Source: a virus. From it: a stretch of DNA of 64,000 nt. The stretch lies in the IMG/VR virus record IMGVR_UViG_3300034018_000240; one strand, written 5' to 3'. A model generated the notes under the pieces. The model did not search any database and was not told the origin of the DNA. It saw only the letters and a list, made by a program, of their open reading frames with translations. Each line of letters opens with the position of its first letter. The first letter of the stretch is position 1. Of the stretch, positions 18,397 to 48,566 are shown piece by piece. A program made the translations under genes and the position numbers.

Positions 18397-18926
18397 TGTT
18401 TGATAAACTGATTGAGATAATAACTAACTGGTGGTTACAACTAACTCCAGTTATTATTGTCAGAGACTATGAAGGAGCTGTATTACTAAGGTGTGGAAAA
18501 TTCTACAGTGTTCTTGAACCTGGACTACATTTTAAGATTCCTTTGTTTGATGAGGTGATAGATCACCATGTAGTAACAACTACCCTTAGTCTTGATGCTC
18601 AATCTTTATACACCTTGGACAAACAAAACATTGTTGTCAAGGGAGTTGTAAAATACAAGATAGCTGATGTAAAGATATTCCTACTTGAGGTATTTGATGC
18701 ACAAGATGCATTGTCAGACATGTCTCAAAGTATAATAAAAAACGTTATTATGTCAATGACCATGGAGGAATGTACAGATCAGGAACTTGACAACACTTTG
18801 ACAAAGAAAGTTAGAGTGGAAGCTAGGAAATGGGGAGTTGAGGTTCAACAAGTTACACTTACAGACCTTGCCCCAATCAGAAGTTATAGGTTTATAAATG
18901 ACAACTTTCTTAACAAATTAGATTAG
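18396..18926 (+). CDS. SPFH / band-7 (stomatin-prohibitin-flotillin-HflK/C) domain protein
   Basis: Hydrophobic N-terminus (LIEIITNWWLQLTPVIIV), then VLLRCGKFYSVLEPGLHFKIPLFDEV matching the SPFH core (compare stomatin VLEPGLHFLIP), and a C-terminal ARKWGVEVQQVTLTDLAP block. Confidence 0.7.
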   Translation: MFDKLIEIITNWWLQLTPVIIVRDYEGAVLLRCGKFYSVLEPGLHFKIPLFDEVIDHHVVTTTLSLDAQSLYTLDKQNIVVKGVVKYKIADVKIFLLEVFDAQDALSDMSQSIIKNVIMSMTMEECTDQELDNTLTKKVRVEARKWGVEVQQVTLTDLAPIRSYRFINDNFLNKLD

Positions 18927-35605: not shown

Positions 35606-38600
35606 TCAAGGAACATCTAACGTAAGACAAGAATTTAATCTTGGCAGAGTTGGATTAGACATGGACTCTTCTGTAAATCAAATACAGAAGGGTAAGCTTT
35701 CTTATGCTCTAAACGCAGCATTAGAAAACTTTGACGCTAATTCTGTAAGCTATCAGAATGAGCCAAGTAATGAAGCTTGCTTAGAGTTTCCTGAAGGCTT
35801 TCAGCTTATTGGAACTCATTTCATACAAGAGAAAAACAAACACATATTCTTCTTAGCGAATCCTCAAACAGGAGGAAGTGAGATAGGATATATGGATAAC
35901 AATGATTGTGTATATCGCACACTTTGTACTCCTATTCCTGATACAGACTTAACAGTTTGTGCTAACTCAGAATGTTTAAACTTTGATATAAACTATCCAA
36001 TACACAAGGCTGTACATAAGATTACAAACTGTACCACTGAGGTTTATTGGACTGATGGATTAAATCCAAGAAGATATATTAACATTGAGCAAGTTCCATA
36101 TGTTTTTTCATATGAAGGAGGTAATACTTGTGATCCAACTATTCTAGTAGTAGATGGACAAGGAGTTCTTGATTGTAATAAGTTAGATGTACAACCTAAC
36201 TTTCAAATTCCTAATATAGAAGTTGCTGAAATTGTTGTAGGAGGAGATTTGAGAGCTGGTACTTATCAATTTGCTATTCAATATGGTAATGCTTCAGGAG
36301 ATGCTTATACATCCTACTTCTCTATAACTAATCCTACATCTATTGCTAATACAGAAATAACAACTCCTGATTTTCAATATTCTGTAGGTGAATCTATTGT
36401 ATTAAATATTACTAACTTAGATGTTACAGGATACTTCCAATACTTTAACTTAGCTGTTATAAAGACCATTAATAATGGTACCACTGTAGAATTAGTGGGA
36501 ACATATAACATTGAAGAAAAGTCTACAAGTATAACTTATACAGGACAGAACACAACTCAGATTCCTTTGAGTCTTGCAGATGTTCTTGAAAAGTTTCCTT
36601 ATTATGAGATTGCTCAAGATGTAACAAACGTACAAGATGTTATTGTTTGGGACAACTTAACTTCTATTGATAGAATCAACTATCAAAGCGTTGCTAATCA
36701 AGTACAACTTCAATGGGAGACATATAAACTGCCAGCTGGTAACACCTATGCTGATGGTTTTTATACTTCCAACTTAAGAGGATATTTAAGAGATGAGGTT
36801 TATGCATTTGAAATTGTATTCTTATTAACCAATGGTAAGCAAACAGATGGTTTTCATATTCCTGGTAGATCACCAATTTCTAATGATTTAACTCCTATTT
36901 ATGAAACTGGTCCTAATGCAACTCCTGACTTCATAGGTACTGCTACTAATGTTGAACCTGTTACACTTTATAAATATAGTCCTAATTGGAAAATATATAA
37001 TACAGCCAGTGTATCTACAACGTATCCTGTTCCTACAGACAATACTAGGAAGATAGGAGAGGCATACCCTTATCAATCTGGAGACTTTGCATATTGGGAG
37101 TCTACTGAGGAGTATCCATGTAACGTAGATGTATGGGGAGACTTAGCTGGTAAACCAATTAGACACCATAAATTTCCTGATGTTCTTGTAAGTCCTTACT
37201 TTGAGAGTCCAAGCATTGTATATAATGGAGGTCAGATAGAACCTGTAATGCAAGTTGCCAATGCTATCTATCCAATAGGTGTGAAGATAGATGTACAACA
37301 AGTGGCATTTGCTATTCAAAGCTCTAGTTTAACAAATGAAGAGAAGGCATCTATTGCTGGATTTAAAATAGTAAGAGGTAATAGAAGTACAAACAAATCT
37401 ATTATTGCTAAAGGTATTCTTAGAAATGTAGGTAAATACACTAGAGAAGATCCTGCTGATCCTAATGCTACATACTACTACTATCCTAACTATCCATACA
37501 ATGACTTAAGTGAAGATCCATTCTTACTTGAGAGAAACAATGCTTACAACTCTCAATGTGATACGTTCTCTGTATCAGTGACAACTCCTGGTATCTTACA
37601 ATACACAAACTGTTTTACAGGAGAAGTAGATACACAAGCTTTTACTAGCAGTACCACTGAAATATGTTCTATCACACTTCCTGTTGTAAATAGTGGTTCT
37701 GCAACATTTACAAATACTACAACTACTACTTATACAATTACAAATAATTCAGCTGTTAGTTCTGTTACATTTAATTATACAGATCCAGTTACAGGAGCAT
37801 TACAAAGTATAACAGTAGGTAGTGTTGTAGGTGGTAACAACGTTAAAACATTTAACTCTACCACTTTCCCTGTAAGAACATCAGGACTAAGTAATTATAA
37901 AATAGTAGCTAGCAACACAAGTGAAAACTTAAATTGTTATCCTAATAAATTAGATGGATTTAATAATCCTGAGTCTGCTTACAGACAAGTATTTAATTCT
38001 CCAGAGACTTCTTTTGGACAACCTACACTAGGTAATGTTCTTAAGTTAGAGAGTGTATTATTTGGTGGAGGAAGAGCTCATTTTGTTGAAGTGCAGAAAC
38101 ATGCTATGTATAAGCTTATCACTGAACAAACACAAGTTGATGCTTTAACCTCTAGTAAGAGAATAGCTGATCTTGGGGGATTTAGTCCTACAGCATTCTT
38201 TACAGCATATCAAACTTACTTACAGATTTATATCAATGGTATTAGTAGACAAAACTTTGCATATTCATTTAACTCTATATCTAGTTATGATTATAGTGCA
38301 GATATTTCTAATAATCAAGGAATTAAACAAAGACAACTTGATCTAGCTCAATACGTATTTCCAGGTGTACAGAACGTAGGTGATAATTATGATCTTAATA
38401 ACTGGAACAGAGAGTCTTCAGTTTATGTTAAAACTATTGATGTTAGAAATGGAATACCTGTATCACCTTTGCCATATCCTAATGACACCCCTTCTCTTGT
38501 TGTAGCAGGTGTAAGTCAAATTAGTGACACTTCAAGATTTACAATTTCAGAAGCAGAAAACTGTGCTAGTCCTGAAGCTCAGAGAGATATCAAAGTAGTA

Positions 38601-41093
38601 TCTTACTATGGTTCTATAAAGGCTATTAATAATGCTCAATGGGGACAGATATATTCATATCAAACTATTGACACAGGATTCCAAAGAATATTCAGTGCAA
38701 TATCTGCTAATGATCCTGAAGTAATATTTGGTGGTGATACATATATTGGTAAGTTTGGATTTAAAACAAAACTTCCATTCTTTATTGATAATAGAGTGAA
38801 TGCTCCTGATGATTCTGATATATATTATGATGAGATAGGTAATGTAGCTTACCCACAATATTGGTATTCAGCAAGATCTATCTTGTCTGATTTTACTGTA
38901 GGCTCTACTGTAATGAAGAATATAATCTCTACCAAAGCACATTATCTTGATTGTCCTAATGATGATATTGCTGACAGTGGTACAACAACTTCTACAACTA
39001 CACCTGCTCCAGGAACAGTAATAGCTGGTTCTTTGAATTATGTGTATGATGGTAAGATGTACTTGTTTGCTTATGGTATTCCTTACTATTATGTAGAGAG
39101 TTCTATTAATGTAGACTTACGTCAGGCATTCAATAACTTAGAAGGTGACTTCTATCCACATGTAAGTTCAGGTATCCCTGATACTTGGTTCCAAGAAAGT
39201 AGAGTTCCTATTGCTCTTGATAATACATATTATTACAATACAACCTTCTCTAAGCAGAATGTAGAGAACTTCTTCTCTCACTTGCCTGCAGATTGGATAC
39301 AGCAATTATGTTATAAAAACTTTCCATTCAGAGCAATATACTCTGATAGACAAGAAAGTTATTCTGACAATAGAATAAATAGCTGGTTGATATATCGTCC
39401 AGTGAGCTTCTTTGATTTCCCTCAAAACTATGGTAATCTTATATCTTTAGATGGTATTCAGAACAGAGCTACACTAGCTAGATTTGAGAACAAGACATTG
39501 TTATATGGTAACATGTTAACATTGAATACAAGTAATCCTCAAGCAGCTTATTTAGGTAATCCTTCATTATTCAGCAGTGTTGAACCACCTCCTATAGATT
39601 ACGCTGAAACAGATCTTGGATATGTTGGTTGTCAAAATAAGATGTTGCTTAAGATACCTCAAGGGCAGATAACTATTGATGCTAAGAGATGTCAAGTATT
39701 TTTAATTCAAGGAACACAAGCAACTGATATTTCAGGATTTGGTTCTGGTCTTAATAGATTCTTTACAAATCATTTAGCATTTGAAATACTAAGATACTTC
39801 CCAACAGTTAACACAGATAATCATTTCAAGAATATTGGTATTCATGGTGTGTATGATAGTGTATTTGAAAGAGTAATAATTACTAAGTTAGACTATGTTC
39901 CACAACCAGGTAAAGAGGTATTTTATGATGAGGTGGTTAAACAGTTTTATGTTGACCAACCAGTAGCTGGTGATCTTGTAGTTAAGAAATATATCGAGGT
40001 GACAGATCTTGAATACTTCTGTAACAAATCATGGACTGTTTCATTTAACTTCAATACAAAGAGTTGGGTGAGTTTTCATACATATCTTCCTAACTTCTAT
40101 ATAGGAGAAAACAGCTTCTTCTATTCTGGATTAAATGAAGGTTGTGATGTCACAGCAGTGGCAGTTGTACCAATACCTTCTCCAACCACAACTACAACAA
40201 CAACAAGAATTATATACTGTAACCTAACTGGTACAGCTGTAGTGGTAGGATATCCTTGTCTTTTAGGAGGAACAGCTTCACAACAAACCACTACCACTAC
40301 AACAACATCTACATCTACTTCTACTAGTACCACTACTACTACCACAACTGCTGTGCCTTTTGACTGTATATTAATTCCAGGATCTTTTACAACAGAACCT
40401 GATTGTAGATTAACAGCAGGAGAATTTATACGTGTATCTGTTACTACAACAAGTACAACAACTCCTACTCCTACAACTAGCACTACCACTACACCACAAC
40501 CATCTCTTTATAGATATAGTTCAGCAGGTCCTGATGATGCTTGTGGTACTGCTTTAACAATGACAAATGTAATATTGACTGATCCACCATTCTGTTCTGC
40601 AACTGCAATTCAATGTGATGAGTTTGTACTATCACCAGCTGGTGTACCAGTATGGGTTCGCACTGGTAATAGCTATAGAGCTGCAACAATCAATGATCCT
40701 AATACATCTGGAATTGCTACATTCGATGTAGGAACATGTATTGTATGTACAACTACAACTAGTACTTCTTCTACTACTACTACCACTACAACTGCAGCAC
40801 CTGTTGCAAGAACTGTAACTAACCTTGGTGCAAGTGCTTCTGATATATTAGGAGAGATTTATATAGATTCCTCAGTTACTCTTAGTGGTAATGTAAATGT
40901 AGATACTATAATAGAAGTAGTTGTGTCCACTAGTACATATGGTGATATCACTGTATATGTTACAATACTCAATGGTAACAATGCAGGAGTTGGTTCAACT
41001 TCTGTTGGAATGGGAAGTCTTCCATCAGTATCAGGTCAATGTATTGCATCTTCTGATAATGTATATGTAACTTTCATTGGGTATGAATGTTAA
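35532..41093 (+). CDS. giant tail/fibre-associated protein (about 1830-1853 aa) with multiple poly-Thr/Ser linkers
   Basis: Longest uninterrupted frame. The start is ambiguous (ATG at 35532, 35556 or 35583; the last overlaps the upstream gene by only 23 nt). Four poly-T/S linker tracts in the last 300 residues separate Cys-containing modules. Confidence 0.6.
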   Translation: MTYNALDNMNYQIEAQDMAEDGIDNQGTSNVRQEFNLGRVGLDMDSSVNQIQKGKLSYALNAALENFDANSVSYQNEPSNEACLEFPEGFQLIGTHFIQEKNKHIFFLANPQTGGSEIGYMDNNDCVYRTLCTPIPDTDLTVCANSECLNFDINYPIHKAVHKITNCTTEVYWTDGLNPRRYINIEQVPYVFSYEGGNTCDPTILVVDGQGVLDCNKLDVQPNFQIPNIEVAEIVVGGDLRAGTYQFAIQYGNASGDAYTSYFSITNPTSIANTEITTPDFQYSVGESIVLNITNLDVTGYFQYFNLAVIKTINNGTTVELVGTYNIEEKSTSITYTGQNTTQIPLSLADVLEKFPYYEIAQDVTNVQDVIVWDNLTSIDRINYQSVANQVQLQWETYKLPAGNTYADGFYTSNLRGYLRDEVYAFEIVFLLTNGKQTDGFHIPGRSPISNDLTPIYETGPNATPDFIGTATNVEPVTLYKYSPNWKIYNTASVSTTYPVPTDNTRKIGEAYPYQSGDFAYWESTEEYPCNVDVWGDLAGKPIRHHKFPDVLVSPYFESPSIVYNGGQIEPVMQVANAIYPIGVKIDVQQVAFAIQSSSLTNEEKASIAGFKIVRGNRSTNKSIIAKGILRNVGKYTREDPADPNATYYYYPNYPYNDLSEDPFLLERNNAYNSQCDTFSVSVTTPGILQYTNCFTGEVDTQAFTSSTTEICSITLPVVNSGSATFTNTTTTTYTITNNSAVSSVTFNYTDPVTGALQSITVGSVVGGNNVKTFNSTTFPVRTSGLSNYKIVASNTSENLNCYPNKLDGFNNPESAYRQVFNSPETSFGQPTLGNVLKLESVLFGGGRAHFVEVQKHAMYKLITEQTQVDALTSSKRIADLGGFSPTAFFTAYQTYLQIYINGISRQNFAYSFNSISSYDYSADISNNQGIKQRQLDLAQYVFPGVQNVGDNYDLNNWNRESSVYVKTIDVRNGIPVSPLPYPNDTPSLVVAGVSQISDTSRFTISEAENCASPEAQRDIKVVSYYGSIKAINNAQWGQIYSYQTIDTGFQRIFSAISANDPEVIFGGDTYIGKFGFKTKLPFFIDNRVNAPDDSDIYYDEIGNVAYPQYWYSARSILSDFTVGSTVMKNIISTKAHYLDCPNDDIADSGTTTSTTTPAPGTVIAGSLNYVYDGKMYLFAYGIPYYYVESSINVDLRQAFNNLEGDFYPHVSSGIPDTWFQESRVPIALDNTYYYNTTFSKQNVENFFSHLPADWIQQLCYKNFPFRAIYSDRQESYSDNRINSWLIYRPVSFFDFPQNYGNLISLDGIQNRATLARFENKTLLYGNMLTLNTSNPQAAYLGNPSLFSSVEPPPIDYAETDLGYVGCQNKMLLKIPQGQITIDAKRCQVFLIQGTQATDISGFGSGLNRFFTNHLAFEILRYFPTVNTDNHFKNIGIHGVYDSVFERVIITKLDYVPQPGKEVFYDEVVKQFYVDQPVAGDLVVKKYIEVTDLEYFCNKSWTVSFNFNTKSWVSFHTYLPNFYIGENSFFYSGLNEGCDVTAVAVVPIPSPTTTTTTTRIIYCNLTGTAVVVGYPCLLGGTASQQTTTTTTTSTSTSTSTTTTTTTAVPFDCILIPGSFTTEPDCRLTAGEFIRVSVTTTSTTTPTPTTSTTTTPQPSLYRYSSAGPDDACGTALTMTNVILTDPPFCSATAIQCDEFVLSPAGVPVWVRTGNSYRAATINDPNTSGIATFDVGTCIVCTTTTSTSSTTTTTTTAAPVARTVTNLGASASDILGEIYIDSSVTLSGNVNVDTIIEVVVSTSTYGDITVYVTILNGNNAGVGSTSVGMGSLPSVSGQCIASSDNVYVTFIGYEC

Positions 41094-41114: not shown

Positions 41115-41549
41115 ATGCCATTTTCAGCAACAATAAGTTTAAATTTTGCAGGAGCAAACACTGGTCCTTTTGATCTTTTTTCAGATGCAGACACTTATGC
41201 TGTAGCATTTGCATTAGCAGTTCCTAAAGCGTCTTTGCTTGCAGGATATTTATCAAGTGCTGTTCCTGATTTTACAACAATCTGTAGAGTTAAATCTACA
41301 GGAGCGTGTGTTAATTATGTAGACATGCCTCTTGATGATCCTTACATATTTGTATATACAAGATGTGATACAGGAGATGAGTATTATAAGATAGGATTAA
41401 TAACAACAGGAAATGTACAAGATACTAATACACCTACAGCAAACTGTTATCAATATGTTGCTCAAGGATTACTATCAGCCATGACTATTGCCTATCCAAG
41501 TTTAACAATTAACAATACTTTATCTGCTTCAAGTTGTCCTTGCGTTTAA
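41115..41549 (+). CDS. TGPFDL family paralog 2 (144 aa)
   Basis: SLNFAGANTGPFDLFSDADTY...LLAGYLSSAVPDFTTICRVKSTGACVNYVD aligns with the N-terminus of the 31359 gene. Confidence 0.5.
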   Translation: MPFSATISLNFAGANTGPFDLFSDADTYAVAFALAVPKASLLAGYLSSAVPDFTTICRVKSTGACVNYVDMPLDDPYIFVYTRCDTGDEYYKIGLITTGNVQDTNTPTANCYQYVAQGLLSAMTIAYPSLTINNTLSASSCPCV

Positions 41550-41559
41550 AATAATATAA

Positions 41560-42426
41560 ATGGCTAAAACAGTAATAATAAGATTAACTTGCTCAGGTGG
41601 CAGAACAGGACCCTTTGATATCTCTGATAACTTAGGGACAGTCTTGGGCATTGACATTACTAAACAAGACCTTATTGATGGATATACTGTTAGTGTTGCT
41701 GACTCTGTTACTACAATAATTATAAGATCTAAAGGTAAGTGTTCTACTAGCATTAATGTTACAATTGGTACAGCTACAAAAGAACAGCTTGCTGCTTTAG
41801 ACTACACTGTATGTAACACAGGATCTATATGGAAGCATTTAGATGATACAATACATTATAACAAATACTATGGTAATGTAGAACCATACATAATTGAATA
41901 TCCATTTGCTTATCAAACCTATGATGAGATACTTCAGAATGTTAAAGATTATAGTAAGGTGTATAACTATATACCATCTGTAGATGGAGTGGTTAATGAA
42001 ACTGCTAAGATAGAGGTTGATAATCAATGGTTTAACAAAGCTGTTCTATATAATGGACAACAGTCTACAGGTATATTAGAACTTGTACCAAAGCCAATCA
42101 ACAACCTAAAACAATACTTAGCTTACCCAATATATAATGACTTTAGCAAGACTATCACTTATACTAAGTCAGATAACTTCTATCAATATAATACATTCTG
42201 GGGATTAGTTAAGAATAAATCATTACCTTTGTTTAGAACAAGTTGTGAGTCTTTATCAGTAGATAAGGTTGTAAATCAAGTGAATATGGATTATGGAAAA
42301 CGTTCATTTAAGAAAGAACCATTGAGAGCCAAAGACTTAAAGGTAAGACACATCCTTGACAATAGCTCTGAAGCACATATAGTTTCTCAATTCATTATTG
42401 CACCTGCTCAAATCTCTTATAAGTAA
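41560..42426 (+). CDS. TGPFDL family paralog 3 with extended C-terminal domain (288 aa)
   Basis: IRLTCSGGRTGPFDISDNLGTV...LIDGYTVSVADSVTTIIIRSKGKCSTSINV shares the same module. Confidence 0.55.
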   Translation: MAKTVIIRLTCSGGRTGPFDISDNLGTVLGIDITKQDLIDGYTVSVADSVTTIIIRSKGKCSTSINVTIGTATKEQLAALDYTVCNTGSIWKHLDDTIHYNKYYGNVEPYIIEYPFAYQTYDEILQNVKDYSKVYNYIPSVDGVVNETAKIEVDNQWFNKAVLYNGQQSTGILELVPKPINNLKQYLAYPIYNDFSKTITYTKSDNFYQYNTFWGLVKNKSLPLFRTSCESLSVDKVVNQVNMDYGKRSFKKEPLRAKDLKVRHILDNSSEAHIVSQFIIAPAQISYK

Positions 42427-45400
42427 TGGCTAACTGGTTAGACAAATATGAACAAGGAGGCTTAGTCTTAAAGAAAAAGACCAAGGATAACTATGGCAAG
42501 AAAGCTAATCCTAATGATGTCCAAGTATCTGTAGGTCCTGACTTTGTAGGACTTGGATATAACATTAAGGGTAGGGACTATTCTCCTGCATGGGGTGGGC
42601 GATTTCAGAATGGTGGATTCTTACAACCTAATAGTTCTAAATTGCCAGAAGGATATGTAATACCATATAACACTCCTAGCACTGAATTAGCTATGTCTAT
42701 AGGTGGAGAAAAAGGAGAACCAGCTTATTTAATTCCTTCATTTAAAGGTGGTAAGAAATTAAAAGATCCTATTGCTGAATATAAGAAGACAGGTGAACAT
42801 CTTGGTGGTCCATTTAAAACATGGCAAGAAGCTGAGAAGTTTGGTGAGATGAGACATGAATATGTAGAGAAAGGACAATCACTTCCTTCTCCATTGAAGT
42901 GGTGGGATGATATGCAAATGGGGGGATCTATGCCAGGTTCTGTAGGCTTCACGTACGCACGTGTAGCTGGCTCAGCTCCTGCTAATGGTAAGTATACTAA
43001 GAAGACAAAAGCTAGTGCTCAGAATGGTCAAGAGATGAAATTCTACCAAGAAGGACTAGACTTCAAACCTAAGAGTATAAGTCAAGATGGAAAAACTATT
43101 CCTAATGAGAAAGAGGAAATAAAACCAATTACAACTTCTCAAAAAAACATAGGACAAGCTGCAGCATGGAAAGTAATAGAAGCTATTAAAGCTAACACTC
43201 CATATCAATTATCAGAAAGTGCTGTAAAGTCTGGAATAGATCCATCATTAACATGTATAGGTGGTGTATGTAATGTCTATAAAGATTTAGGTGTTGACTT
43301 CTCTGGTGTAGGAAATGAAAAACAAGGTGTAAGAGAATCAAGAACAAAAGGTAAAGTAGTAGAATATAATCCAACATTTGATAAAAACTATAAAGCTGCT
43401 GGATTTGAAAAAGTAAAAGGAAGACCTATTGAATTTAATGAGTTAACTGATATAATACAAAAAGGAAACTTAAATCCAGGAGATTTTATACAATACTATA
43501 ATAAAAAAGGTATTCCAGATCATACTAATATTGTATTAGGTTCAAACCCTGATGGCAGTGTTGAGGTTTATAATTCATATAAACATGGACAGGTAACAAG
43601 AGGAGAAAGTAAAGAACCTTATGTATATACATTAAATCCTGAAGCACAAGACTATAAAGGTAAAAAAATTAATGTATTTAGAGTAGGTGATCAAAAGGCA
43701 ACAGAAATAAGAGATGCAAGTGCAAATGATCCAAGTGGTATAACAAACACTTGGTTTAATTACAATATGGAGAAGGCGATTCAAAGAAGAATGAAAATAC
43801 TAGAAAAGGATTACCAAGAACTTGCAAAACAAAGTGGTGAACCTGCTAAAAAACTAACTCCATCACAATTAAGAAAAGCTGCAATAGAAGAAGAAAGACG
43901 TATTTATGAATCAGATCCTATGTTTAAAAGAAACCTAGAGATAATAAATACAGTTGACTTTTCTGAATCTCCACAAGAAGCAATGTATAGAACATTGAAT
44001 AAAAAGAAAAATGGTGGATGGTTAGATAACTACAGTGAACCAATAAGAGATGACAGAGGACAGTGGGCTCATCCAGGTAAGATAACAGAGATAGGATCTA
44101 ACAATATTACAATGCAAGGGGTAGACTATCCTGTTCTTGGCATATCTGATACAGGTGATACACAGATGATGTATCCTGATCAAGATTATAAGTTTGATGG
44201 TGAAAAGGTTACAGAGTATCCAATGGCTCAAGATGGTGAGAACATTACCAAAAAACTGAAGAAAGAAGCTGAGGAGAAATTAGAAAGGATGAAGAAACCT
44301 AAGGCTACTCTATCTCAATATACACCTAAGAAAGGGGAACAAGCTAAGTTTGATAAACAGAAGTTACAAAGAATAGCTGAAGACAATGCTCCATTAAATA
44401 GAATGGCTGCTAGTAAGGGAGCTAAGAATATGCAAGATGCTATAGAAGCAGCATTGATAATGGAAGGTGGATTGGCAGCAAGTAAGCTTGTTGGTAAAGG
44501 TGCCAAAGCAGCTGCTAAATATGCTACAGAACAAACAGCCTTAAAGAATGTTTATAAGTTAAATCCATATGCATTTAAACCTACAGAGGGAATGATGTAT
44601 AGAGGTATTGGTAAAGAAGGAATGGAAGATGCATTACAAAGTGGTCTGTTTAGAGCTAAACAAAATGTAACTCCTACTAGTATAGGTAACTTTAATACTA
44701 CTAGACAATTTAGTAAAGCTTACTATACTCCTAGATTTGATATAGCAGATCAGTATGGACAAGGGTATATTGCTGAGGTACCAAGAGGAGCTTCTGACTG
44801 GGGTAAGAGATATGGTAAAAAAGAATGGAGTCAAATAGCTCAAAGAGATATACCTATAACTGAAGGTAAAGTTTTACAGAAAGATTGGTTAAAAAGATAT
44901 AAAGAAGTTCCTAAACCAACTGCTTCAGAACAAGTTGTAAGAGGTCCAATTCCTGCTCCTTACAAAGGAACAACTTTACCTTATGATAACATTGGATATA
45001 AGGAACCAGCAACAGGAGAACTAGCTCCATACATGACACCAGAGTTTGAAGCAATTCCATATAGTGAATTACCTAAAACTGTATATCATGGTGGTCCTAG
45101 TGTTATTTCAGACGCAGGTGCTATTAGAATAACTAGAGAAGGATTGCCTATTCAAAGTGCAACTTCTCCAACTTCAAGAGGATTCTATGCAACTCCTAAT
45201 ACTTGGATGCATATGGAAGGTTCTCCAAATCCTCTTAGAGATGTAGAAGGATTTTATCCAAAACTTGCTAGTGAGAATGCTGAAAACTATGCAATGGGAA
45301 GAGGGGATGCATACATACATGGAGGTGAGTTTGTTGAAAATCCTAGAATAGTTGACTGGAAAACATTTAGTCAAATGGAACCAGTTAAGAATCTTAATCC

Positions 45401-45593
45401 TGACTTTAGAAGACTAAGTCCTGAGGCTGCTAAAATAGCAGAAGATCTTGGTATATATGGTCTTAGAGATAATAGTGAATATAACATTCTTAATCCACAA
45501 AAGGTTTTTAAATCATTTAAACCTGCATATAAAAATCTGGGTAAAGGTTGGGAAAAATATAACAAAGGTGGCTGGTTAAACAAATATAAATAA
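42426..45593 (+). CDS. large virion (probably ejected) protein with CHAP/NlpC-P60-like cysteine peptidase (peptidoglycan hydrolase) domain
   Basis: 1055 aa. Candidate catalytic Cys in TCIGGVCNVYKDLG (about 43251-43271). Candidate His in NPGDFIQYYNKKGIPDHTNIVLG (about 43490-43530), followed by GSVEVYNSY, matching the Cys...GDhh...HVgI...N pattern. GGWL(D/N)(K/N)Y motif at N-terminus, middle and extreme C-terminus. Confidence 0.6.
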   Translation: MANWLDKYEQGGLVLKKKTKDNYGKKANPNDVQVSVGPDFVGLGYNIKGRDYSPAWGGRFQNGGFLQPNSSKLPEGYVIPYNTPSTELAMSIGGEKGEPAYLIPSFKGGKKLKDPIAEYKKTGEHLGGPFKTWQEAEKFGEMRHEYVEKGQSLPSPLKWWDDMQMGGSMPGSVGFTYARVAGSAPANGKYTKKTKASAQNGQEMKFYQEGLDFKPKSISQDGKTIPNEKEEIKPITTSQKNIGQAAAWKVIEAIKANTPYQLSESAVKSGIDPSLTCIGGVCNVYKDLGVDFSGVGNEKQGVRESRTKGKVVEYNPTFDKNYKAAGFEKVKGRPIEFNELTDIIQKGNLNPGDFIQYYNKKGIPDHTNIVLGSNPDGSVEVYNSYKHGQVTRGESKEPYVYTLNPEAQDYKGKKINVFRVGDQKATEIRDASANDPSGITNTWFNYNMEKAIQRRMKILEKDYQELAKQSGEPAKKLTPSQLRKAAIEEERRIYESDPMFKRNLEIINTVDFSESPQEAMYRTLNKKKNGGWLDNYSEPIRDDRGQWAHPGKITEIGSNNITMQGVDYPVLGISDTGDTQMMYPDQDYKFDGEKVTEYPMAQDGENITKKLKKEAEEKLERMKKPKATLSQYTPKKGEQAKFDKQKLQRIAEDNAPLNRMAASKGAKNMQDAIEAALIMEGGLAASKLVGKGAKAAAKYATEQTALKNVYKLNPYAFKPTEGMMYRGIGKEGMEDALQSGLFRAKQNVTPTSIGNFNTTRQFSKAYYTPRFDIADQYGQGYIAEVPRGASDWGKRYGKKEWSQIAQRDIPITEGKVLQKDWLKRYKEVPKPTASEQVVRGPIPAPYKGTTLPYDNIGYKEPATGELAPYMTPEFEAIPYSELPKTVYHGGPSVISDAGAIRITREGLPIQSATSPTSRGFYATPNTWMHMEGSPNPLRDVEGFYPKLASENAENYAMGRGDAYIHGGEFVENPRIVDWKTFSQMEPVKNLNPDFRRLSPEAAKIAEDLGIYGLRDNSEYNILNPQKVFKSFKPAYKNLGKGWEKYNKGGWLNKYK

Positions 45594-45613: not shown

Positions 45614-48490
45614 ATGAAAGACCAAATATTAAAGATTGCTAAAGTAAAGTCTGAGAAGGAATTCTACAAGAAGTATCCTACAGAAGAAGCATTCATGAAA
45701 GTTCATGGTAAAGAGTTAAAGAAAGCTGCTATGGGTAAGTCTATGGTGAACAAACAGTTACACCAACTTACAGACTTTGGCAATCCTCCTAAGTTTCAAG
45801 GTGGTGGTAGTGCTAATGGAAATGTGCTAAATCTTATGGGTTGGGGAAATGCTCAACCTGCTGTACAACCTGCTACTTATAATAGCTGGACAGGACTTGT
45901 TGGTGGATCACAGAATGCTGCTGGACAAGAAGTAGTTACAAAAGCAGCTACAGATGCTGCATTTGGTGAAGGTGGTCTTCCTGAAGGTGCTGGTGGAGGT
46001 GGTATGGCAGCAGGAGTAGCAACAGCAGCTATTGGTGCATTGCCAGGAATCATAGGAGGTATCGAAGCAATTGGTTCACAAAGAAAAGCAATAAATAAAG
46101 CATATCAAGCTAGAGAGTTATCAGAACTAGCTTTACAAGCTGGCTCTACAAGAGAGAAAGTTAAACGTAAATATGTAAGACCAGAAGATAATATTGTACA
46201 GCCTGGACAGTTAGGTAATCCTTATGGATCAGGTACAAACTTCTTAGCTGAGAATGGTAGAATGATTGGTGGCAATCCTACAGAGATTCAGAACATGTAC
46301 AATCCTGGTGATATGTACACTGACCTTGGATTTGAACCAATGGGAGAAACATTGAAACAATTTAAAAAAGGTGGCAATCTTCCTGAAGCAGCATTTGGAG
46401 ATTACTTCCAAAGTTCTGGTCAAGCACAGATTGGTAGTGCTGCAGGTACAGCCATTGGTAGTATTGTAGGTGGACCATTAGGTGGTGCAATTGGTGGACT
46501 TATTGGTACAGTGGGTGGTAACCTATTAGGTGGTGCTAAAAATGCTAGAGAACTAGAAGCAGAGAAAAAGAAAGCTGAGATGAACACTCAACAAGCTGCG
46601 TTCCAACAAGCTCAACAAAATCAGTTTGGTGCATATATGGAGCAAGGTGGTAAGGTGGATGTAGGTGATGAATATAAGTGGGTTAGTCATACATGGCAAC
46701 CACAAACAATTGCTAAGTTTGGTGAGTATAATGTTAAAGACTTGTTAAAGCCTCCTCATGATGCAGATATGCTAAGAAGTGGTGGTCATTTAAAAGATGA
46801 GTATTATACACCTCCTAGTGCAGAAGCATTGTTTACTGGCAGACCTGAGCGAAAGCCTTTAACTATGCAACATGGTGGACAGATGGCTATGGGGGGTGAC
46901 TTAGAAATAATTGAAGGTGGTAAGGCAGAAACAATCTCTTATAATCCTTTCCTACCAGATGGTGGTGAGACAGTTATGTTTAAAGGAAGATCTCATGACA
47001 ATGGTGGCATTCCTATTAACTTTGGTGAGAATGGTGTAGAAGTTGAGGGTGGTGAACCAGCTGTTAAACTAAAAGATGGTGGTAAAGACAACAATATGGT
47101 TGTATTTGGTAACATGAAGATTGATAAAAACATAGCAGACCTTATGGGAGATCCAAAAGCAAAAGGTAGAAAGTTCAAACATTATGTAGCTGATATAGCT
47201 AAGAATGATGCAAAACAATTGAAAATAAGTGAGAAGGCTAATGAAAAAATTATCAATGCTGATAATAATAGTACAGCTGGTCATTTACAGTTAATAACAA
47301 ATGAACTTATAAAACAAGGAGCTGAAGAGTATCAAAAGATAAATGCTAAAAAGATTCAGGAAGCAGGTATTGTACAAAATGCTATTCTTGATACAGCTAG
47401 TCAATTAGGAGTTAAGAGTGACAAACTTGCTGAAGGTAAGCTTGAAAAAGAATATGACAAACGTATGATGGCTAAAGATGGTAAGAAATTAAAGAAGGCT
47501 CAAAATGGAGAGTATGAATATTTTGATCCTAAAAATAATTATTTAGAAGAAGAAATTAACACTTCACAAAATACTGGTGGTGTAATGTCTGGATATGATC
47601 AAAATATGAATTACTTTGATCAGTCAGGAAATCTAGTAGATCAATCTGGAGATCTTCCTAAAGCAGTTGGAGTAGCTGGAGTTGAAGGTGGAGGATTTGG
47701 ACAAGCATTAAAGTCATTAGGAAGTACTTTAGGTAAAGGGCTTGAGAAGTATGGTCCTAGTATCCTATCTAACATAGCTCCATTCTTAAGACCTAGTAAT
47801 GCTAATGAAGAATTATCTCCAGATCAATTATATCCTGAATACTTTGCATTGGCTACCAATCAGTTAGAACCTGTACAGGCTCAAACATTCCAGCCAATGT
47901 TAGATACTCCTATGGATATCTCTTTTAATGATCAGATTAATGCTATTGATGCTCAATCTAGAGCAGCCATTAGAGCAGCAGGTTCAAACCCAGCTGCCCA
48001 AGCAATGATTATGGCTCAGGCATTAGAAGCTAAAAACCAAGTGTTTGGAAATCGAGACAGAATCAATACTACAAACAAGATGCAGATATTTGATAAGAAT
48101 AGAGCAATGTTAAATGATGCTCAGCTTAAAAACTTACAAATTCTTGATAATCAATACGTTAGACAAGCTCAGGCTAGATCTAATACTAAAGAACAAGCAC
48201 TTAGTGCGTTAAGTTCTATAGCTGCTAAGACAGCACAACAAAGAGCTGCTAATAGACAATTGGCTGTTATGGAGAACATGTACAACTTTAGATTCACTCC
48301 AAGTGGTAGAGCAATTAATATGAATGCTCCTGCTCAGTTTAATATTCCTGGAGCAGGAGGGTCTCAAAAATCTACAGATGCAAAAGGAAATGATCTTCTT
48401 CCTATCTATAATAAGAAAGGAGACATTACAGGATATAAAGTCAAAGAAGCTAGACATGGTTCACTTGTAAAAGCTCTAAAAAATCTCTAA
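45614..48490 (+). CDS. large virion protein with glycine-zipper membrane-like segments (958 aa)
   Basis: AGGGGMAAGVATAAIGALPGIIGGIEAIGS and AAGTAIGSIVGGPLGGAIGGLIGTVGGNLLGGAK ((G/A)xxxG repeats). Many Gly-Gly dipeptides. Coiled-coil C-terminal half. Confidence 0.55.
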   Translation: MKDQILKIAKVKSEKEFYKKYPTEEAFMKVHGKELKKAAMGKSMVNKQLHQLTDFGNPPKFQGGGSANGNVLNLMGWGNAQPAVQPATYNSWTGLVGGSQNAAGQEVVTKAATDAAFGEGGLPEGAGGGGMAAGVATAAIGALPGIIGGIEAIGSQRKAINKAYQARELSELALQAGSTREKVKRKYVRPEDNIVQPGQLGNPYGSGTNFLAENGRMIGGNPTEIQNMYNPGDMYTDLGFEPMGETLKQFKKGGNLPEAAFGDYFQSSGQAQIGSAAGTAIGSIVGGPLGGAIGGLIGTVGGNLLGGAKNARELEAEKKKAEMNTQQAAFQQAQQNQFGAYMEQGGKVDVGDEYKWVSHTWQPQTIAKFGEYNVKDLLKPPHDADMLRSGGHLKDEYYTPPSAEALFTGRPERKPLTMQHGGQMAMGGDLEIIEGGKAETISYNPFLPDGGETVMFKGRSHDNGGIPINFGENGVEVEGGEPAVKLKDGGKDNNMVVFGNMKIDKNIADLMGDPKAKGRKFKHYVADIAKNDAKQLKISEKANEKIINADNNSTAGHLQLITNELIKQGAEEYQKINAKKIQEAGIVQNAILDTASQLGVKSDKLAEGKLEKEYDKRMMAKDGKKLKKAQNGEYEYFDPKNNYLEEEINTSQNTGGVMSGYDQNMNYFDQSGNLVDQSGDLPKAVGVAGVEGGGFGQALKSLGSTLGKGLEKYGPSILSNIAPFLRPSNANEELSPDQLYPEYFALATNQLEPVQAQTFQPMLDTPMDISFNDQINAIDAQSRAAIRAAGSNPAAQAMIMAQALEAKNQVFGNRDRINTTNKMQIFDKNRAMLNDAQLKNLQILDNQYVRQAQARSNTKEQALSALSSIAAKTAQQRAANRQLAVMENMYNFRFTPSGRAINMNAPAQFNIPGAGGSQKSTDAKGNDLLPIYNKKGDITGYKVKEARHGSLVKALKNL

Positions 48491-48566
48491 CTAATTAAGT
48501 TATAGTGAATTACTAAAATTTGTTATAGCTCTTGGTAATTCTAATATTTTAAATTAATTTTGTATT

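What the first reader, a model, noticed from the sequence alone, without database searches (positions are those of the whole stretch)
42426..45593. GGWL(D/N)(K/N)Y motif repeated at the N-terminus, middle and extreme C-terminus of the 1055-aa protein
MANWLDKYEQGG (42426-42461), NGGWLDNYSEP (about 44029-44061) and KGGWLNKYK-stop (45564-45593) share the same core, even at the DNA level (tggttagacaaatat / tggttagataactac / tggttaaacaaatat). A short motif placed exactly at both termini and once internally suggests segment boundaries, for example protease cleavage or junction signals, a packaging or ejection signal, or an oligomerisation tag. NGGFL at residue about 62 is a weaker fourth copy.
Basis: seen in the sequence. 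Interest (0 to 1): 0.55.

Follow-up and report, generated by a model that had tools for sequence, protein, structure and literature searches.

The report
Delimiter tag on crAss-like phage cargo
A short peptide, GG-W-L-x-K-Y, brackets and separates the interchangeable modules of a highly variable, probably injected protein in a large uncultured group of crAss-like phages; it most likely acts as a docking or address tag and has not been described in the papers searched.

Summary
W-L-[DN]-[KNR]-Y occurs at residues 4, 532 and 1050 of the 1055-aa ORF. A GG-less fourth copy, WLKRY, sits at 821. The motif occurs nowhere else in the six-frame translation of the 64 kb window (chance of three or more copies about 1.6e-10).

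It is conserved in relatives. Among 120 homologs, 116 end in GG-W-L-x-K-Y followed by 0-2 residues, and most start MAxWLDKYEQGG. Of 120 further representatives (clusters at 50% identity), 103 carry the strict C-terminal motif and 10 a near variant.

The gene is syntenic and very mosaic: 129 to about 2200 aa, 80 architectures in 165 proteins. It lies between a muzzle-associated gene and the gp45-like cargo gene. Modules such as ART-PolyVal, amidase and histidine phosphatase switch partners exactly at the motif. Codons vary synonymously, so the peptide itself is under selection. AlphaFold2 places every copy in a low-confidence segment between domains.

crAss001 gp45 relatives carry a looser GG-aromatic-L delimiter. 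It sits at the start of the portal-bound domain, on both sides of inserted lysozyme modules, and at the C-terminus. One lineage fuses the variable protein to the gp45-like protein and lacks the C-terminal tag.

Best reading (inferred): a docking or address tag that also serves as an in-frame recombination joint. Simple protease cleavage is less likely. No paper in the searched library mentions it.

The parts
42426..45593 (+). Gene for the 1055-aa variable cargo-type (polyvalent-like) protein, called VCP here
   Evidence: ORF and translation. 817 mosaic homologs. 4275 cluster representatives at E<=1e-3. The exact protein occurs on many contigs of up to about 112 kb.
42426..42461 (+). N-terminal copy MANWLDKYEQGG (core WLDKY at 42435-42449)
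   Evidence: The family N-terminal consensus is M-A-[NK]-W-L-D-K-Y-E-Q-G-G. The ATG shares one base with the stop codon of the upstream gene (TAATG).
42609..42623 (+). NGGFL (aa 62-66): GG-aromatic-L hinge on the 5' side of variable insert 1
   Evidence: 45 alignment segments (HSPs) to homologs end in the bin aa 61-70.
42618..42920 (+). Variable insert 1 (aa 65-165). It is bracketed by FQNGG and MQMGG and is absent from the family consensus. In L062 it stands almost alone, flanked by both motifs.
43092..44042 (+). Variable insert 2 (aa 223-539). It contains a papain/NlpC-P60-like Cys...His region (about aa 270-420) and helices, and it ends in the internal motif.
   Evidence: The family consensus reads ...KSISxxG|xxIKDDMGQW... 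without this insert. Weak Amidase_6 hit at aa 331-378, E 0.011, below the Pfam cutoff. AF2 gives a confident island at aa 334-420. Foldseek local hits to papain-like toxin and Tse1 are weak and not significant.
44010..44042 (+). Internal copy NGGWLDNYSEP (core WLDNY at 44019-44033). It forms the C-terminal end of insert 2 and sits immediately before the conserved beta domain.
   Evidence: 65 alignment segments to homologs start in aa 521-540. This is junction type UP2/UP3 to DN2.
44043..44237 (+). Conserved small beta domain (aa 540-604). It is the most conserved part of the family. In the window it ends in ...VTEYPMAQDG without the WLxKY that most homologs carry at this point.
   Evidence: Nearly invariant columns. 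AF2 pLDDT 66-80. Homologous to post-muzzle proteins of Leptolyngbya phage Lbo-JY46 (E 3e-10) and Cellulophaga phage phi17:2 gp041 (E 1e-6).
44538..44915 (+). ART-like module (about aa 705-830)
   Evidence: AF2 confident island at aa 715-820. Homologs of this region carry PF18760 ART-PolyVal. Foldseek hit to the PARP12 catalytic fragment is weak. Not significant for the window protein on its own.
44886..44900 (+). Fourth copy WLKRY (aa 821-825). It has no GG in front and lies at the C-terminal edge of the ART-like module.
   Evidence: The context LQKDWLKRYKEVP recurs in many homologs, some of which end about 10 aa later with ...KKEDGGWLNKYK-stop.
45546..45560 (+). Degenerate tandem copy GWEKY (aa 1041-1045)
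   Evidence: Read directly from the translation.
45564..45593 (+). C-terminal copy KGGWLNKYK plus the stop codon
   Evidence: In 116 of 120 homologs the last GG is followed by W (116), L (116), x, K (115), Y (116) and then 0-2 residues.
41560..42426 (+). Upstream syntenic gene o288 (288 aa). It resembles the C-terminal part of muzzle-type proteins.
   Evidence: phrog_15100 positions 1588-1781. It always directly precedes the motif gene.
45614..48490 (+). Downstream syntenic gene (958 aa), the co-linear relative of crAss001 cargo protein 1 (gp45)
   Evidence: Glycine zipper. hhalign of 7 gp45 sequences against it gives 648 aligned columns, E 7.6e-4, probability 25%. It is fused to a VCP core in P0331.

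Best explanation
What is shown:
- GG-W-L-x-K-Y, often followed by x-x-G-G, is a conserved linear peptide motif under selection at the protein level.
- It caps both ends, and marks the internal joints, of one hypervariable, mosaic gene.
- That gene lies in the virion and cargo gene block of a large uncultured clade of crAss-like phages. It sits between the muzzle-associated gene and the gp45-like cargo gene.
- The modules between motif copies are exchangeable. They include effector-type domains (ART-PolyVal, amidase, histidine phosphatase, peptidase).

What is inferred:
- The motif is a small docking knob, probably one and a half helical turns. W, L, K and Y would face a partner, and the variable residue would face the solvent. 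Gly-Gly hinges hold it out on either side.
- The knob tethers whatever module set the protein carries to a constant part of the virion interior or of the ejection machinery. Candidates are the gp45-like cargo protein, the portal, the tail-barrel rings, or the muzzle/o288 complex. This would make it an address or anchor tag for packaging and ordered ejection.
- Because the tag is constant and in frame, it also serves as the joint at which modules are gained, lost and swapped by recombination.
- It is a sharpened, lineage-specific form of a looser GG-aromatic-L delimiter present in gp45-type cargo proteins of gut crassviruses.
For: Reality and conservation:
- Searches show non-random occurrence, unique to this ORF.
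- in 116 of 120 homologs the C-terminal GG is followed by W-L-x-K-Y, with W, L and Y invariant.
- of 120 new representatives (clusters at 50% identity), 103 carry the strict C-terminal motif and 10 more a near variant. 101 have a copy in the first 60 aa.

One gene, fixed position:
- Searches show the motif is confined to one syntenic gene per locus, in about 85 loci.

The tag is the only constant:
- Gene length runs from 129 to about 2200 aa.
- Minimal genes are a single module flanked by both motifs, and different minimal genes hold different modules.

Junction role:
- 131 internal junctions fall into 20 upstream and 20 downstream flank types, giving 35 combinations. One upstream type joins at least 7 different downstream types.
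- 80 architectures among 165 proteins.
- high-identity DNA alignment segments end within 18 nt of the motif centre in both genes, at the same offset.

Selection on the peptide:
- One search shows synonymous codon variation (Leu TTA/CTA/TTG/CTT, Lys AAA/AAG, Tyr TAT/TAC) with no amino-acid change.
- N-terminal copies are mostly WLDKY and C-terminal copies mostly WLNKY. Each site is therefore conserved on its own rather than homogenised.

Presentation:
- All four window copies lie in segments with pLDDT below 50, between confident domains. Three-residue helices are predicted at aa 5-7 and 1050-1052.
- GG occurs only on the side of the motif that faces a module.

Link to known cargo:
- In crAss001 gp45 the Pfam crAss_CARG1 match (aa 424-555) and the ordered, portal-bound domain (aa 425-552) start at A-F-G-G-W-L.
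- In 7 gp45 relatives a [FY]-A-x-G-G-x-[LIVM] delimiter is conserved near residues 20, 209, 373, 427, 562 and at the extreme C-terminus, for example KSKGGYLTYGK-stop and KKSHGGFLNI-stop.
- That delimiter brackets both segments seen ordered in the cryo-EM map, and it flanks inserted modules on both sides in bajarodcaudo virus (lysozyme) and cr128_1.

Natural fusion:
- P0331 (1495 aa, found on 24 contigs) joins a VCP core to the gp45-like protein. There is no separate gp45-like gene in that locus.
- The fusion point is where unfused relatives carry ...NFTNYNKPTKGGWLDKYK-stop, and the C-terminal tag is missing.
Against: - No binding partner was identified, and no structural or proteomic data exist for any member of this family.
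- AF2 gave no confident model of the motif.
- In crAss001 the GGWL lies at the edge of a folded domain. It could be a fold-boundary element there rather than a free docking peptide.
- The same tag at both termini and at internal sites needs many equivalent binding sites, and their number is unknown.
- The fusion argument rests on one lineage.
- The assignment of the 958-aa protein as gp45-like is weak: hhalign probability 25%, and neither window protein hits PF25725.
- That the 1055-aa protein is packaged at all is inferred. The basis is synteny, domain content, the fusion, and a 'virion structural protein' annotation on a distant beta-domain homolog.
Confidence: 0.42

Rival explanations
1. 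Processing sites of a polyprotein. A phage or host protease cuts at or next to the Gly-Gly, for example GG|W, and releases the individual effector modules in the capsid or after injection. WLxKY would act as the recognition or spacer element.
For: - Gly-Gly directly precedes the motif at module boundaries.
- Polyvalent proteins are proposed to be processed by their own peptidase domains (PMC5512222).
- Some homologs carry peptidase-like modules: DUF6782, and the papain-like region of the window protein.
- Periplasm-acting modules (amidase) and cytoplasm-acting modules (ART) sit on one chain, and cleavage would resolve that.
- From my own knowledge, GG-X cleavage of virion polyproteins is established for adenovirus protease and for ASFV pS273R.
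Against: - The invariant residues are P1' to P5', with only GG on the non-prime side. That is unusual for a protease site.
- The extreme N- and C-terminal copies would release only 3-12 residues, yet they are the most conserved copies.
- No peptidase module is universal in the family. Only about a third of homologs cover aa 270-420.
- No protease family was found in the window's structural block.
- In crAss001 gp45 the analogous delimiters lie inside an ordered domain, and inside a chain the authors treat as continuous between tail and capsid. No proteolysis is reported.
Confidence: 0.17
2. A structural boundary element only. The GG hinge plus a hydrophobic cap lets neighbouring modules fold, unfold and thread through the tail independently. 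There is no specific binding partner.
For: - The motif sits at domain edges in low-confidence linkers.
- In gp45 the delimiters sit at the start of, or between, segments that are ordered independently.
- Cargo proteins must partly unfold to be ejected (PMC10172136).
- GG dipeptides are about twofold enriched in the two downstream cargo-type proteins.
Against: - A copy after which the protein simply ends (116 of 120) bounds nothing.
- A hinge or cap would tolerate W to F or Y and L to I or V, as the gp45 family does. This family keeps W, L and Y invariant.
- The 129-aa minimal proteins keep both tags.
Confidence: 0.12
3. A host-directed motif used after ejection. It could be an interfacial membrane, LPS or peptidoglycan anchor, since the Trp/Tyr/Lys context is cationic. 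It could instead be a short box that hijacks a conserved host protein, in the way the colicin TolB box (DGSGW) works within a disordered Gly-rich translocation domain.
For: - The residue types W, L, K and Y, with Lys-rich flanks such as KKKNGGWLNKYK, fit interfacial binding.
- The motif stays invariant across phages whose virion proteins have diverged to about 45-55% identity. That suits a conserved host target.
- The protein is Gly-rich and mostly predicted to be disordered.
- The resemblance to the TolB box is recalled from my own knowledge. It is a lead, not a test.
Against: - Non-specific membrane anchoring would not need invariant W, L and Y in a fixed order.
- The host is unknown. The motif followed by a stop codon is absent from 185,579 species genomes, so no host mimicry is detectable.
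- The fusion that lacks the C-terminal tag points to a role tied to the phage's own cargo machinery.
- The related delimiter in gp45 is seen bound inside the virion.
Confidence: 0.12
4. A recombination joint and nothing more. The conserved ends and joints persist because module shuffling happens there, through shared descent and DNA-level copying. The peptide has no function of its own.
For: - Mosaicism is extreme, and partners switch at the motif.
- The rare Gly codon GGC is strongly enriched at the second Gly (20 of 57, against 3% background). C-terminal copies mostly read GGTGGCTGG.
- Inserts are flanked by duplicated delimiters.
Against: - Synonymous variation without amino-acid change at W, L, K and Y, across about 4000 clusters at 50% identity, indicates purifying selection on the peptide.
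- Exact DNA identity between copies within one gene is only about 6-9 nt.
- The conserved flanking genes (o288 and the gp45-like gene) already give ample homology for swapping the whole cassette, so the terminal tags are not needed for that.
- N-terminal and C-terminal copies keep distinct consensus residues, D and N respectively.
Confidence: 0.07

Closest known systems
Crassvirus cargo protein 1 (crAss001 gp45; Pfam PF25725 crAss_CARG1; PDB 7QOG and others; Bayfield et al. 2023, PMC10172136)
   Same: - It is encoded just after the muzzle gene.
- It is Gly-rich and largely unresolved in the map.
- Short segments anchor it to the muzzle, tail barrel and portal.
- It carries GGWL twice and ANWLD once.
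- A GG-aromatic-L delimiter is conserved at module edges, on both sides of inserted lysozyme-type modules, and at the extreme C-terminus.
   Different: - There is no detectable sequence homology. Neither window protein hits PF25725, and BLASTP finds nothing.
- The co-linear gp45 relative in the window is the next gene (958 aa). The motif-bearing protein is an extra gene, which in one lineage is fused to the gp45-like gene.
- Here the delimiter is extended to WLxKY, is invariant, and brackets a hypervariable set of effector modules.
Polyvalent proteins of phages and conjugative elements (Iyer, Burroughs, Anand, de Souza, Aravind 2017, PMC5512222)
   Same: - These are multi-domain, mosaic proteins encoded next to virion genes and predicted to be packaged and injected.
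- The family includes ART-PolyVal, ADP-ribosyl exotoxin-type, histidine phosphatase, amidase and metallopeptidase modules.
   Different: - That paper contains no occurrence of 'linker' and none of 'crAss', so it does not appear to describe a fixed delimiter peptide.
- The window's own copy has no domain that passes a Pfam threshold.
- The gene occupies one fixed syntenic slot.
Cargo-targeting peptides of capsid-like compartments: encapsulin cargo-loading peptides and the T4 capsid-targeting sequence of internal proteins (my own knowledge)
   Same: - A short conserved peptide sits at a protein terminus, joined by a flexible Gly-rich linker to otherwise unrelated cargo.
- The peptide is the only constant feature among diverse cargos.
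- The shell has the HK97 fold.
   Different: - Binding is not demonstrated here.
- The sequence is unrelated.
- Copies occur at both termini and internally.
- The T4 sequence is N-terminal only and is removed by the prohead protease.
- Encapsulin peptides bind the shell protein, whereas here the partner is unknown.
Pre-toxin demarcation motifs of polymorphic toxins: VENN in CdiA and PxxxxDPxGL in Rhs/YD proteins (my own knowledge)
   Same: - A short invariant motif marks the joint between constant and exchangeable modules.
- It coincides with recombination breakpoints.
- The variable parts are toxin or effector domains.
   Different: - No immunity gene follows. The next gene is a conserved cargo gene.
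- No orphan cassettes were seen.
- The motif also caps both termini.
- The system is a virion protein, not a secreted toxin.
Gly-Gly-X cleavage sites of virion polyproteins: adenovirus protease (M/I/L)XGG|X and ASFV pS273R GG|X (my own knowledge)
   Same: Gly-Gly followed by a conserved residue marks the boundaries of units in a protein packaged into a dsDNA virus particle.
   Different: - Specificity here would lie on the prime side.
- Copies sit at the extreme termini.
- No cognate protease was found.
- There is no evidence of cleavage.

Membership tests
Crassvirus cargo protein 1 (gp45 / PF25725 crAss_CARG1) | Sequence match to the crAss_CARG1 domain (the portal-bound domain, gp45 aa 424-555) | tested here: not met
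   Pfam scan at E<=10 gave no PF25725 hit for the 1055-aa or the 958-aa protein, while gp45, bajarodcaudo virus and cr128_1 score 1e-54 to 1e-66. hhalign of the VCP beta domain against gp45 gave probability below 1%.
Crassvirus cargo protein 1 (gp45 / PF25725 crAss_CARG1) | Gene lies directly downstream of the muzzle gene, in the block that runs on to the giant RNAP-type genes | tested here: met
   Gene order in the window: Ring2, Ring1, muzzle (PF25702, PF24228, PF25731), o144, o288, VCP, 958-aa, 864-aa, 4145-aa. The same order holds in related loci.
Crassvirus cargo protein 1 (gp45 / PF25725 crAss_CARG1) | Present in virions and anchored to the portal, tail barrel or muzzle | not testable with these tools
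   Needs proteomics or cryo-EM. The only indirect support is the 'virion structural protein' annotation of the distant beta-domain homolog phi17:2 gp041 and the natural fusion to the gp45-like protein.
Polyvalent proteins (Iyer et al. 2017) | Two or more effector or enzymatic domains of different function in one polypeptide | tested here: inconclusive
   Met at the family level: ART-PolyVal, ADPrib_exo_Tox, His_Phos_1, Amidase_2 and DUF6782 occur in homologs. For the window protein there is only a sub-threshold Amidase_6 hit (E 0.011) and non-significant fold hints for a papain-like and an ART-like module.
Polyvalent proteins (Iyer et al. 2017) | Encoded by a phage or conjugative element, in the neighbourhood of virion or transfer genes | tested here: met
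   (portal, crass capsid, ring proteins, muzzle).
Terminal cargo-targeting peptide (encapsulin CLP / T4 CTS type) | Short conserved peptide at a terminus of otherwise unrelated cargo proteins, joined by a flexible linker | tested here: met
   (conservation and cargo diversity). (low-confidence linker context). GG hinges.
Terminal cargo-targeting peptide (encapsulin CLP / T4 CTS type) | The peptide binds a defined site inside the shell or core and is necessary and sufficient for encapsidation | not testable with these tools
   No multimer prediction or experiment was available.
Protease-processed virion polyprotein (GG-X type) | A cognate protease is encoded by the virus, or is part of the polyprotein in all members | tested here: not met
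   No protease family was found in the ORFs scanned with Pfam or PHROGs within 13.7-63.6 kb. The papain-like module is covered by only about 43 of 120 homologs. The window does not cover the whole genome of about 112 kb, so absence is not proven.
Protease-processed virion polyprotein (GG-X type) | Mature products with termini at the motif | not testable with these tools
   Needs N-terminomics or mass spectrometry.
Polymorphic-toxin demarcation motif (VENN / DPxGL type) | Invariant short motif at the junction where variable modules are exchanged | tested here: met
Polymorphic-toxin demarcation motif (VENN / DPxGL type) | A cognate immunity gene lies immediately downstream, with orphan toxin/immunity cassettes nearby | tested here: not met
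   The downstream gene is always the conserved gp45-like gene, 20 nt away in the window. No other ORF carries the motif within about 8 kb on either side.

The most novel reading that the evidence does not exclude
GG-WLxKY is a portable address tag. Any polypeptide bracketed by it would be loaded into the crAss-like virion and injected, giving a natural plug-and-play protein-delivery slot that these phages use to shuffle anti-host effectors. The looser GG-aromatic-L delimiters of gp45-type proteins would then show that all crassvirus cargo is built as beads on a string, with the delimiters encoding where each bead is parked (muzzle, tail barrel or portal) and in what order it leaves.
Probability: 0.25. 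Interest if true: 0.85.

Novelty: new variant of a known kind. Interest (0 to 1): 0.66.

Why it matters
- Crassviruses are among the most abundant phages known. How they load and eject several megadaltons of protein cargo is an open question: the 2023 crAss001 atlas left most cargo unresolved, and a 2026 N4 paper calls for structures of crassvirus ejection proteins.
- A universal tag on an otherwise freely variable cargo gene gives a concrete sequence to mutate, to search for in maps, and to use as bait for the binding partner.
- The locus is also a rich, unexplored catalogue of injected effectors: about 4300 clusters at 50% identity.
- If the tag proves sufficient for packaging, it could be used to deliver engineered proteins by phage.
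- The finding that gp45-type proteins carry related delimiters around their ordered segments can be checked at once in the deposited crAss001 models.

Tried and rejected
1. Known structure or family for the protein. The PDB sequence search found nothing. PHROGs found nothing for this protein. Pfam gave only a sub-threshold Amidase_6 hit. Foldseek against the PDB on a model with pLDDT 44 gave nothing below E 0.07.
2. Cultured relatives. tblastn of the 1055-aa and 958-aa proteins against 50,697 GenBank phage records found no match. The best match to the major capsid protein is 26% identical, in a Leptolyngbya phage.
3. WLxKY in distant relatives. The post-muzzle genes of Lbo-JY46, phi17:2, FpV4 and csAssE-Sib have no WLxKY. 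The only trace is an N-terminal x-x-K-Y-K in front of the shared beta domain in two of them.
4. Idea that the VCP beta domain equals the portal-binding CARG1 domain of gp45. Rejected: hhalign probability below 1%.
5. Homology between the VCP N-terminus and the gp45 C-terminal tail. Only marginal: local alignment score 55 against shuffles of 27 +/- 5, but hmmsearch E 0.012 for a single target. The segment is conserved in only 2 of 7 gp45 relatives.
6. Global test that all homology breakpoints lie at the motif. The enrichment is weak: 7.9% of breakpoints lie within 15 aa of a motif, against 3.8% for random positions. Many breakpoints lie at other GG hinges or inside modules. The junction-specific analysis is the informative one.
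7. Motif in cellular genomes. GGWL[DN]KYK followed by a stop codon gave one chance hit (Azoarcus, not in an ORF) among 185,579 species genomes.
8. Tandem motif-flanked genes that could have fused. None were seen; there is one gene per locus.
9. Literature. Full-text searches for GGWLNKY, GGWLDKY, WLDKYEQGG and 'GGWL motif' returned 0 papers. Other searches found nothing on the motif.
10. The homolog search with gp45 returned only sequences at least 96% identical, which says nothing about conservation. Diverse gp45 relatives were taken from GenBank phages instead.
11. A DNA-level reading as an antisense promoter-like string or an out-of-frame stop codon was considered. It was dropped because the synonymous codon variation shows the constraint is on the peptide.

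Full report
**Observation**

The ORF at 42426..45593 (+) encodes 1055 aa. W-L-[DN]-[KNR]-Y occurs at three places:
- aa 4, as MANWLDKYEQGG, 42426-42461;
- aa 1050, as KGGWLNKYK followed by the stop codon, 45564-45593.

From the protein's composition, 0.001 copies are expected and P(3 or more) is about 1.6e-10. None of 20,000 shuffles had more than one copy. In the six-frame translation of the whole window the motif occurs only in this ORF.

**Context**

The window is the virion block of a crAss-like phage:
- P22-like portal (15808-18396);
- crass capsid protein (20365-21918);
- ring protein 2 (33414-34151) and ring protein 1 (34634-35605);
- muzzle protein (35532-41093).

After the muzzle come two small genes, o144 and o288; the 1055-aa gene; a 958-aa gene; an 864-aa gene; and a 4145-aa gene.

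The exact protein occurs on many metagenomic contigs of up to about 112 kb. No GenBank phage holds a relative of the 1055-aa or 958-aa proteins. The nearest cultured phages by muzzle protein are Leptolyngbya phage Lbo-JY46 (34%) and Cellulophaga phages phi17:2 and phi4:1 (27%).

The 958-aa protein, not the 1055-aa one, is the co-linear relative of crAss001 cargo protein 1 (gp45). It has a glycine zipper followed by a basic helix and an SH(D/E)..GG..VExGE region. hhalign of seven gp45 sequences against it aligns 648 columns with E 7.6e-4 and probability 25%. This is a weak assignment. Neither window protein matches Pfam PF25725. The motif-bearing protein, called VCP here, is therefore an extra gene between o288 and the gp45-like gene.

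**Conservation**

A search of 5.8 billion proteins gave 817 homologs. They are strikingly mosaic, with high identity over only 13-85% of the query and lengths of 580-1700 aa.

Among the best 120 homologs:
- 90 carry the motif within 12 residues of the start, with consensus M-A-[NK]-W-L-D-K-Y-E-Q-G-G. Others have it after a leader of about 36-50 aa, such as a CxCGHSW zinc-ribbon-like module.
- 118 carry it at the C-terminus.
- 146 internal copies have the consensus [KQE]-[NDE]-G-G-W-L-[DSN]-K-[YF]-[QE]-[DQ]-G-G.

A count made without the motif pattern gives the same picture. In 116 of 120 homologs the last GG is followed by W (116), L (116), x, K (115), Y (116) and then 0-2 residues.

A full HMMER pass over 1.84 billion cluster representatives found 4275 relatives (1392 at E<=1e-30). 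Of 120 new representatives (clusters at 50% identity), 103 have the strict C-terminal motif and 10 more a near variant such as GGWLSQYK, GGWLNKWK or GGWLDQY. In 101 of them a copy lies in the first 60 residues.

**One gene, one slot**

About 85 IMG/VR loci were fetched, either by protein similarity or by the DNA pattern for GGWL[DN]KYK followed by a stop codon. In these loci the motif is confined to a single gene. That gene always follows the o288 homolog and precedes the gp45-like gene.

Gene length ranges from 129 aa to 2042 aa with five copies (L058), and up to 2186 aa among the representatives. The minimal genes consist of one module flanked by both tags, and the module differs between them:
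- L062 holds the equivalent of window aa 66-160.
- L076 holds the aa 160-225 core.
- L047 holds the core plus the beta domain.

The tags are thus the only constant feature.

**Joints between modules**

Relative to the family consensus, the window protein has two inserts:
- aa 65-165, bracketed by FQNGG and MQMGG;
- aa 223-539, which ends in the internal KNGGWLDNYSEP. After it the conserved beta domain resumes.

131 internal junctions were clustered by their 45-aa flanks. This gave 20 upstream and 20 downstream types in 35 combinations. The end of the beta domain (VTEYPMAQx) joins at least seven different downstream types, and the N-core type is preceded by three different upstream types. 165 unique proteins show 80 architectures.

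At the DNA level, alignment segments of at least 88% identity that carry the beta-domain module sit at different positions in different genes. They end within 18 nt of the motif centre, at the same offset in both partners.

A global breakpoint test shows only about twofold enrichment at the motif. The motif is one class of joint among several GG hinges.

Module content in homologs includes ART-PolyVal, ADP-ribosyl exotoxin, histidine phosphatase, Amidase_2 and a metallopeptidase. This is the 'polyvalent protein' theme (PMC5512222).

**Constraint on the peptide or on the DNA**

Across 29 distinct genes the motif codons vary synonymously, while W, L, K and Y do not change:
- Leu: TTA 60, CTA 8, TTG 5, CTT 2.
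- Lys: AAA 61, AAG 10.
- Tyr: TAT 51, TAC 14.

N-terminal copies are mostly WLDKY and C-terminal copies mostly WLNKY. Each site is therefore maintained separately. The rare Gly codon GGC is enriched at the second Gly (20 of 57 against 3% background), which reflects shared descent of the C-terminal copy. The conserved flanking genes already provide homology for swapping the cassette. The terminal tags therefore need a function at the protein level.

**Structure**

AlphaFold2 with a 51-sequence alignment gave mean pLDDT 44. All motif copies fall in segments below 50 (aa 1-113, 502-553, 821-860, 1027-1055). These lie between confident islands:
- aa 334-420, papain/NlpC-like;
- aa 445-500, helices;
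- aa 554-600, beta domain;
- aa 715-820, ART-like.

Three-residue helices are predicted at aa 5-7 and 1050-1052. In a helix, W(i), L(i+1), K(i+3) and Y(i+4) would cluster, and the variable residue (i+2) would point away. GG occurs only on the side of the motif that faces a module. These features fit a short linear motif held out on hinges.

**Link to a solved system**

crAss001 gp45 contains AIGGWLGG (155), AFGGWLNTQGG (427) and ANWLD (799). The Pfam crAss_CARG1 match covers aa 424-555, and the ordered domain that binds the portal wing covers aa 425-552. Both start at A-F-G-G-W-L.

In seven diverse gp45 relatives a delimiter [FY]-A-x-G-G-x-[LIVM] is conserved near residues 20, 209, 373, 427 and 562. 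It is also conserved at the extreme C-terminus, as KSKGGYLTYGK-stop, RSKGGYLTIKKKK-stop and KKSHGGFLNI-stop.

The two segments resolved by cryo-EM are aa 214-245 on the tail-barrel rings and aa 425-552 on the portal. Each begins at or just after one delimiter and ends before the next. In bajarodcaudo virus (a Phage_lysozyme2 module) and cr128_1, inserts of about 200 aa sit exactly at the 427 delimiter and are flanked by two copies, for example GGNLF ... FGGDLL.

The window's motif is therefore a sharpened, lineage-specific version of a wider cargo delimiter. The crAss001 paper mentions neither a glycine motif nor proteolysis of gp45.

**Natural fusion**

P0331 (1495 aa) joins a VCP core (N-terminal WLDAY tag, insert-1 module, beta domain) to about 850 aa homologous to the 958-aa protein (E 1e-61 and 2e-56). 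It occurs on 24 contigs with the gene order muzzle, 209 aa, o288-like, fusion, 862 aa, giant gene. There is no separate gp45-like gene in that locus. The fusion point is where unfused relatives end ...NFTNYNKPTKGGWLDKYK-stop, and the C-terminal tag is missing. This ties VCP functionally to the gp45-like cargo protein. It also suggests that a covalent link can replace the C-terminal tag.

**Interpretation**

Shown:
- The delimiter peptide is conserved and under selection at the protein level.
- It sits on one hypervariable cargo-block gene and coincides with module joints.

Inferred, with confidence about 0.4:
- It is a docking or address tag that tethers variable cargo to constant virion or ejection components.
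- It also serves as an in-frame recombination joint.

Rivals:
- Protease processing (0.17). Weakened by conservation on the prime side only, by the terminal copies, by the lack of a universal protease, and by the gp45 analogy.
- A pure hinge or fold boundary (0.12). Weakened by the terminal copies and by the invariance of W, L and Y.
- A host-directed anchor or a TolB-box-like motif (0.12). No test was possible.
- A recombination joint only (0.07). Weakened by the synonymous variation.

Full-text searches for the motif strings returned no papers, and other searches found nothing on it.

**Verdict**

This is a real, strongly non-random feature that I did not find described.

Noticed in passing
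L095 11988-14516 (crAss001 gp45); L096-L101 (gp45 relatives): gp45-type cargo proteins of gut crassviruses carry a recurrent delimiter [FY]-A-x-G-G-x-[LIVM] at about six conserved positions and at the extreme C-terminus. It brackets the two segments that are ordered in the cryo-EM map, and it flanks inserted modules on both sides (lysozyme in bajarodcaudo virus, an unknown module in cr128_1). DAC17 has a tandem duplication of a module of about 60 aa bounded by it. The crAss001 paper does not mention it.
   Followed up: partly
L102 and L103, 6001-10488 (P0331): A natural fusion of the variable protein's core with the gp45-like cargo protein (1495 aa) replaces the two separate genes in one phage lineage. 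It is found on 24 contigs.
   Followed up: partly
window 45614-48490: The 958-aa protein looks like the true gp45 (cargo protein 1) counterpart. It has a glycine zipper at aa 270-310, then a basic helix, an SHDNGG...VEVEGGE region and a C-terminal helical part, and it is co-linear with gp45 in hhalign. It does not reach any Pfam crAss_CARG1 score.
   Followed up: partly
window 18396-18926: An SPFH/Band-7 domain protein (PF01145, E 1e-25) is encoded between the portal gene and the putative scaffold gene. This is an unusual place for a stomatin-like protein, and no partner NfeD-type protease was seen.
   Followed up: no
window 41115-41549 and 41560-42426: o144 and o288 have similar N-termini (...NFAGANTGPFDLFSD... 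and ...TCSGGRTGPFDISDN...), and tblastn cross-hits between them occur in other loci. The C-terminal 200 aa of o288 match the C-terminal end of muzzle-type PHROG 15100, as if a muzzle C-terminal domain had become a separate gene. The o288 stop codon shares one base with the start codon of the motif gene (TAATG).
   Followed up: partly
window 35532-41093 (about aa 1560-1800): The muzzle protein has long poly-Thr and Thr/Ser tracts (for example TTTTTTTR and TTTSTSTSTSTTTTTTT) separating small Cys-containing segments near its C-terminus.
   Followed up: no
window 27208-29106: A 632-aa protein has collagen triple-helix repeats (PF01391, 5 matched stretches). It is presumably a fibre protein.
   Followed up: no
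window 51161-63598: A 4145-aa ORF has no Pfam hit. By its position it should correspond to the crassvirus virion RNA-polymerase-type cargo genes, fused into one gene. The homologous gene is 4276 aa in L102 and is split in L103.
   Followed up: no
L069 1-291 and L078 3789-8348 (both from contig IMGVR_UViG_3300037488_000489, 117.7 kb): One contig holds two different copies of the VCP/gp45-like locus. The ART-module end is 97% identical between them, then the sequences diverge right after WLKRYKEVP. This is either a chimeric or concatenated assembly of two strains, or microdiversity at this hypervariable gene.
   Followed up: partly
P0025, P0027, P0056 and others (first about 40 aa); L058, L060: Many homologs start with a leader of about 36 aa that looks like a zinc ribbon (M-x-x-x-I-x-C-T-C-G-H-S-W-...-C-G-K-D-N-T-M). 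It sits in front of the first GGWL copy. Gene callers sometimes start the gene at the Met just before the motif instead.
   Followed up: no
L088 16878-18365 (Leptolyngbya phage Lbo-JY46); L089 21127-23814 (Cellulophaga phage phi17:2 gp041): Distant cultured relatives share the small beta domain at their very N-terminus. It is preceded by MGKINKYKFG or MAIRKKYKRG, that is an x-x-K-Y-K remnant without W-L. The K-Y part of the tag may therefore be older than the W-L part.
   Followed up: partly
window 45614-51161: GG dipeptides are about twofold over-represented in the 958-aa and 864-aa proteins relative to their Gly content. They are not over-represented in the capsid, portal or muzzle proteins.
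   Followed up: partly
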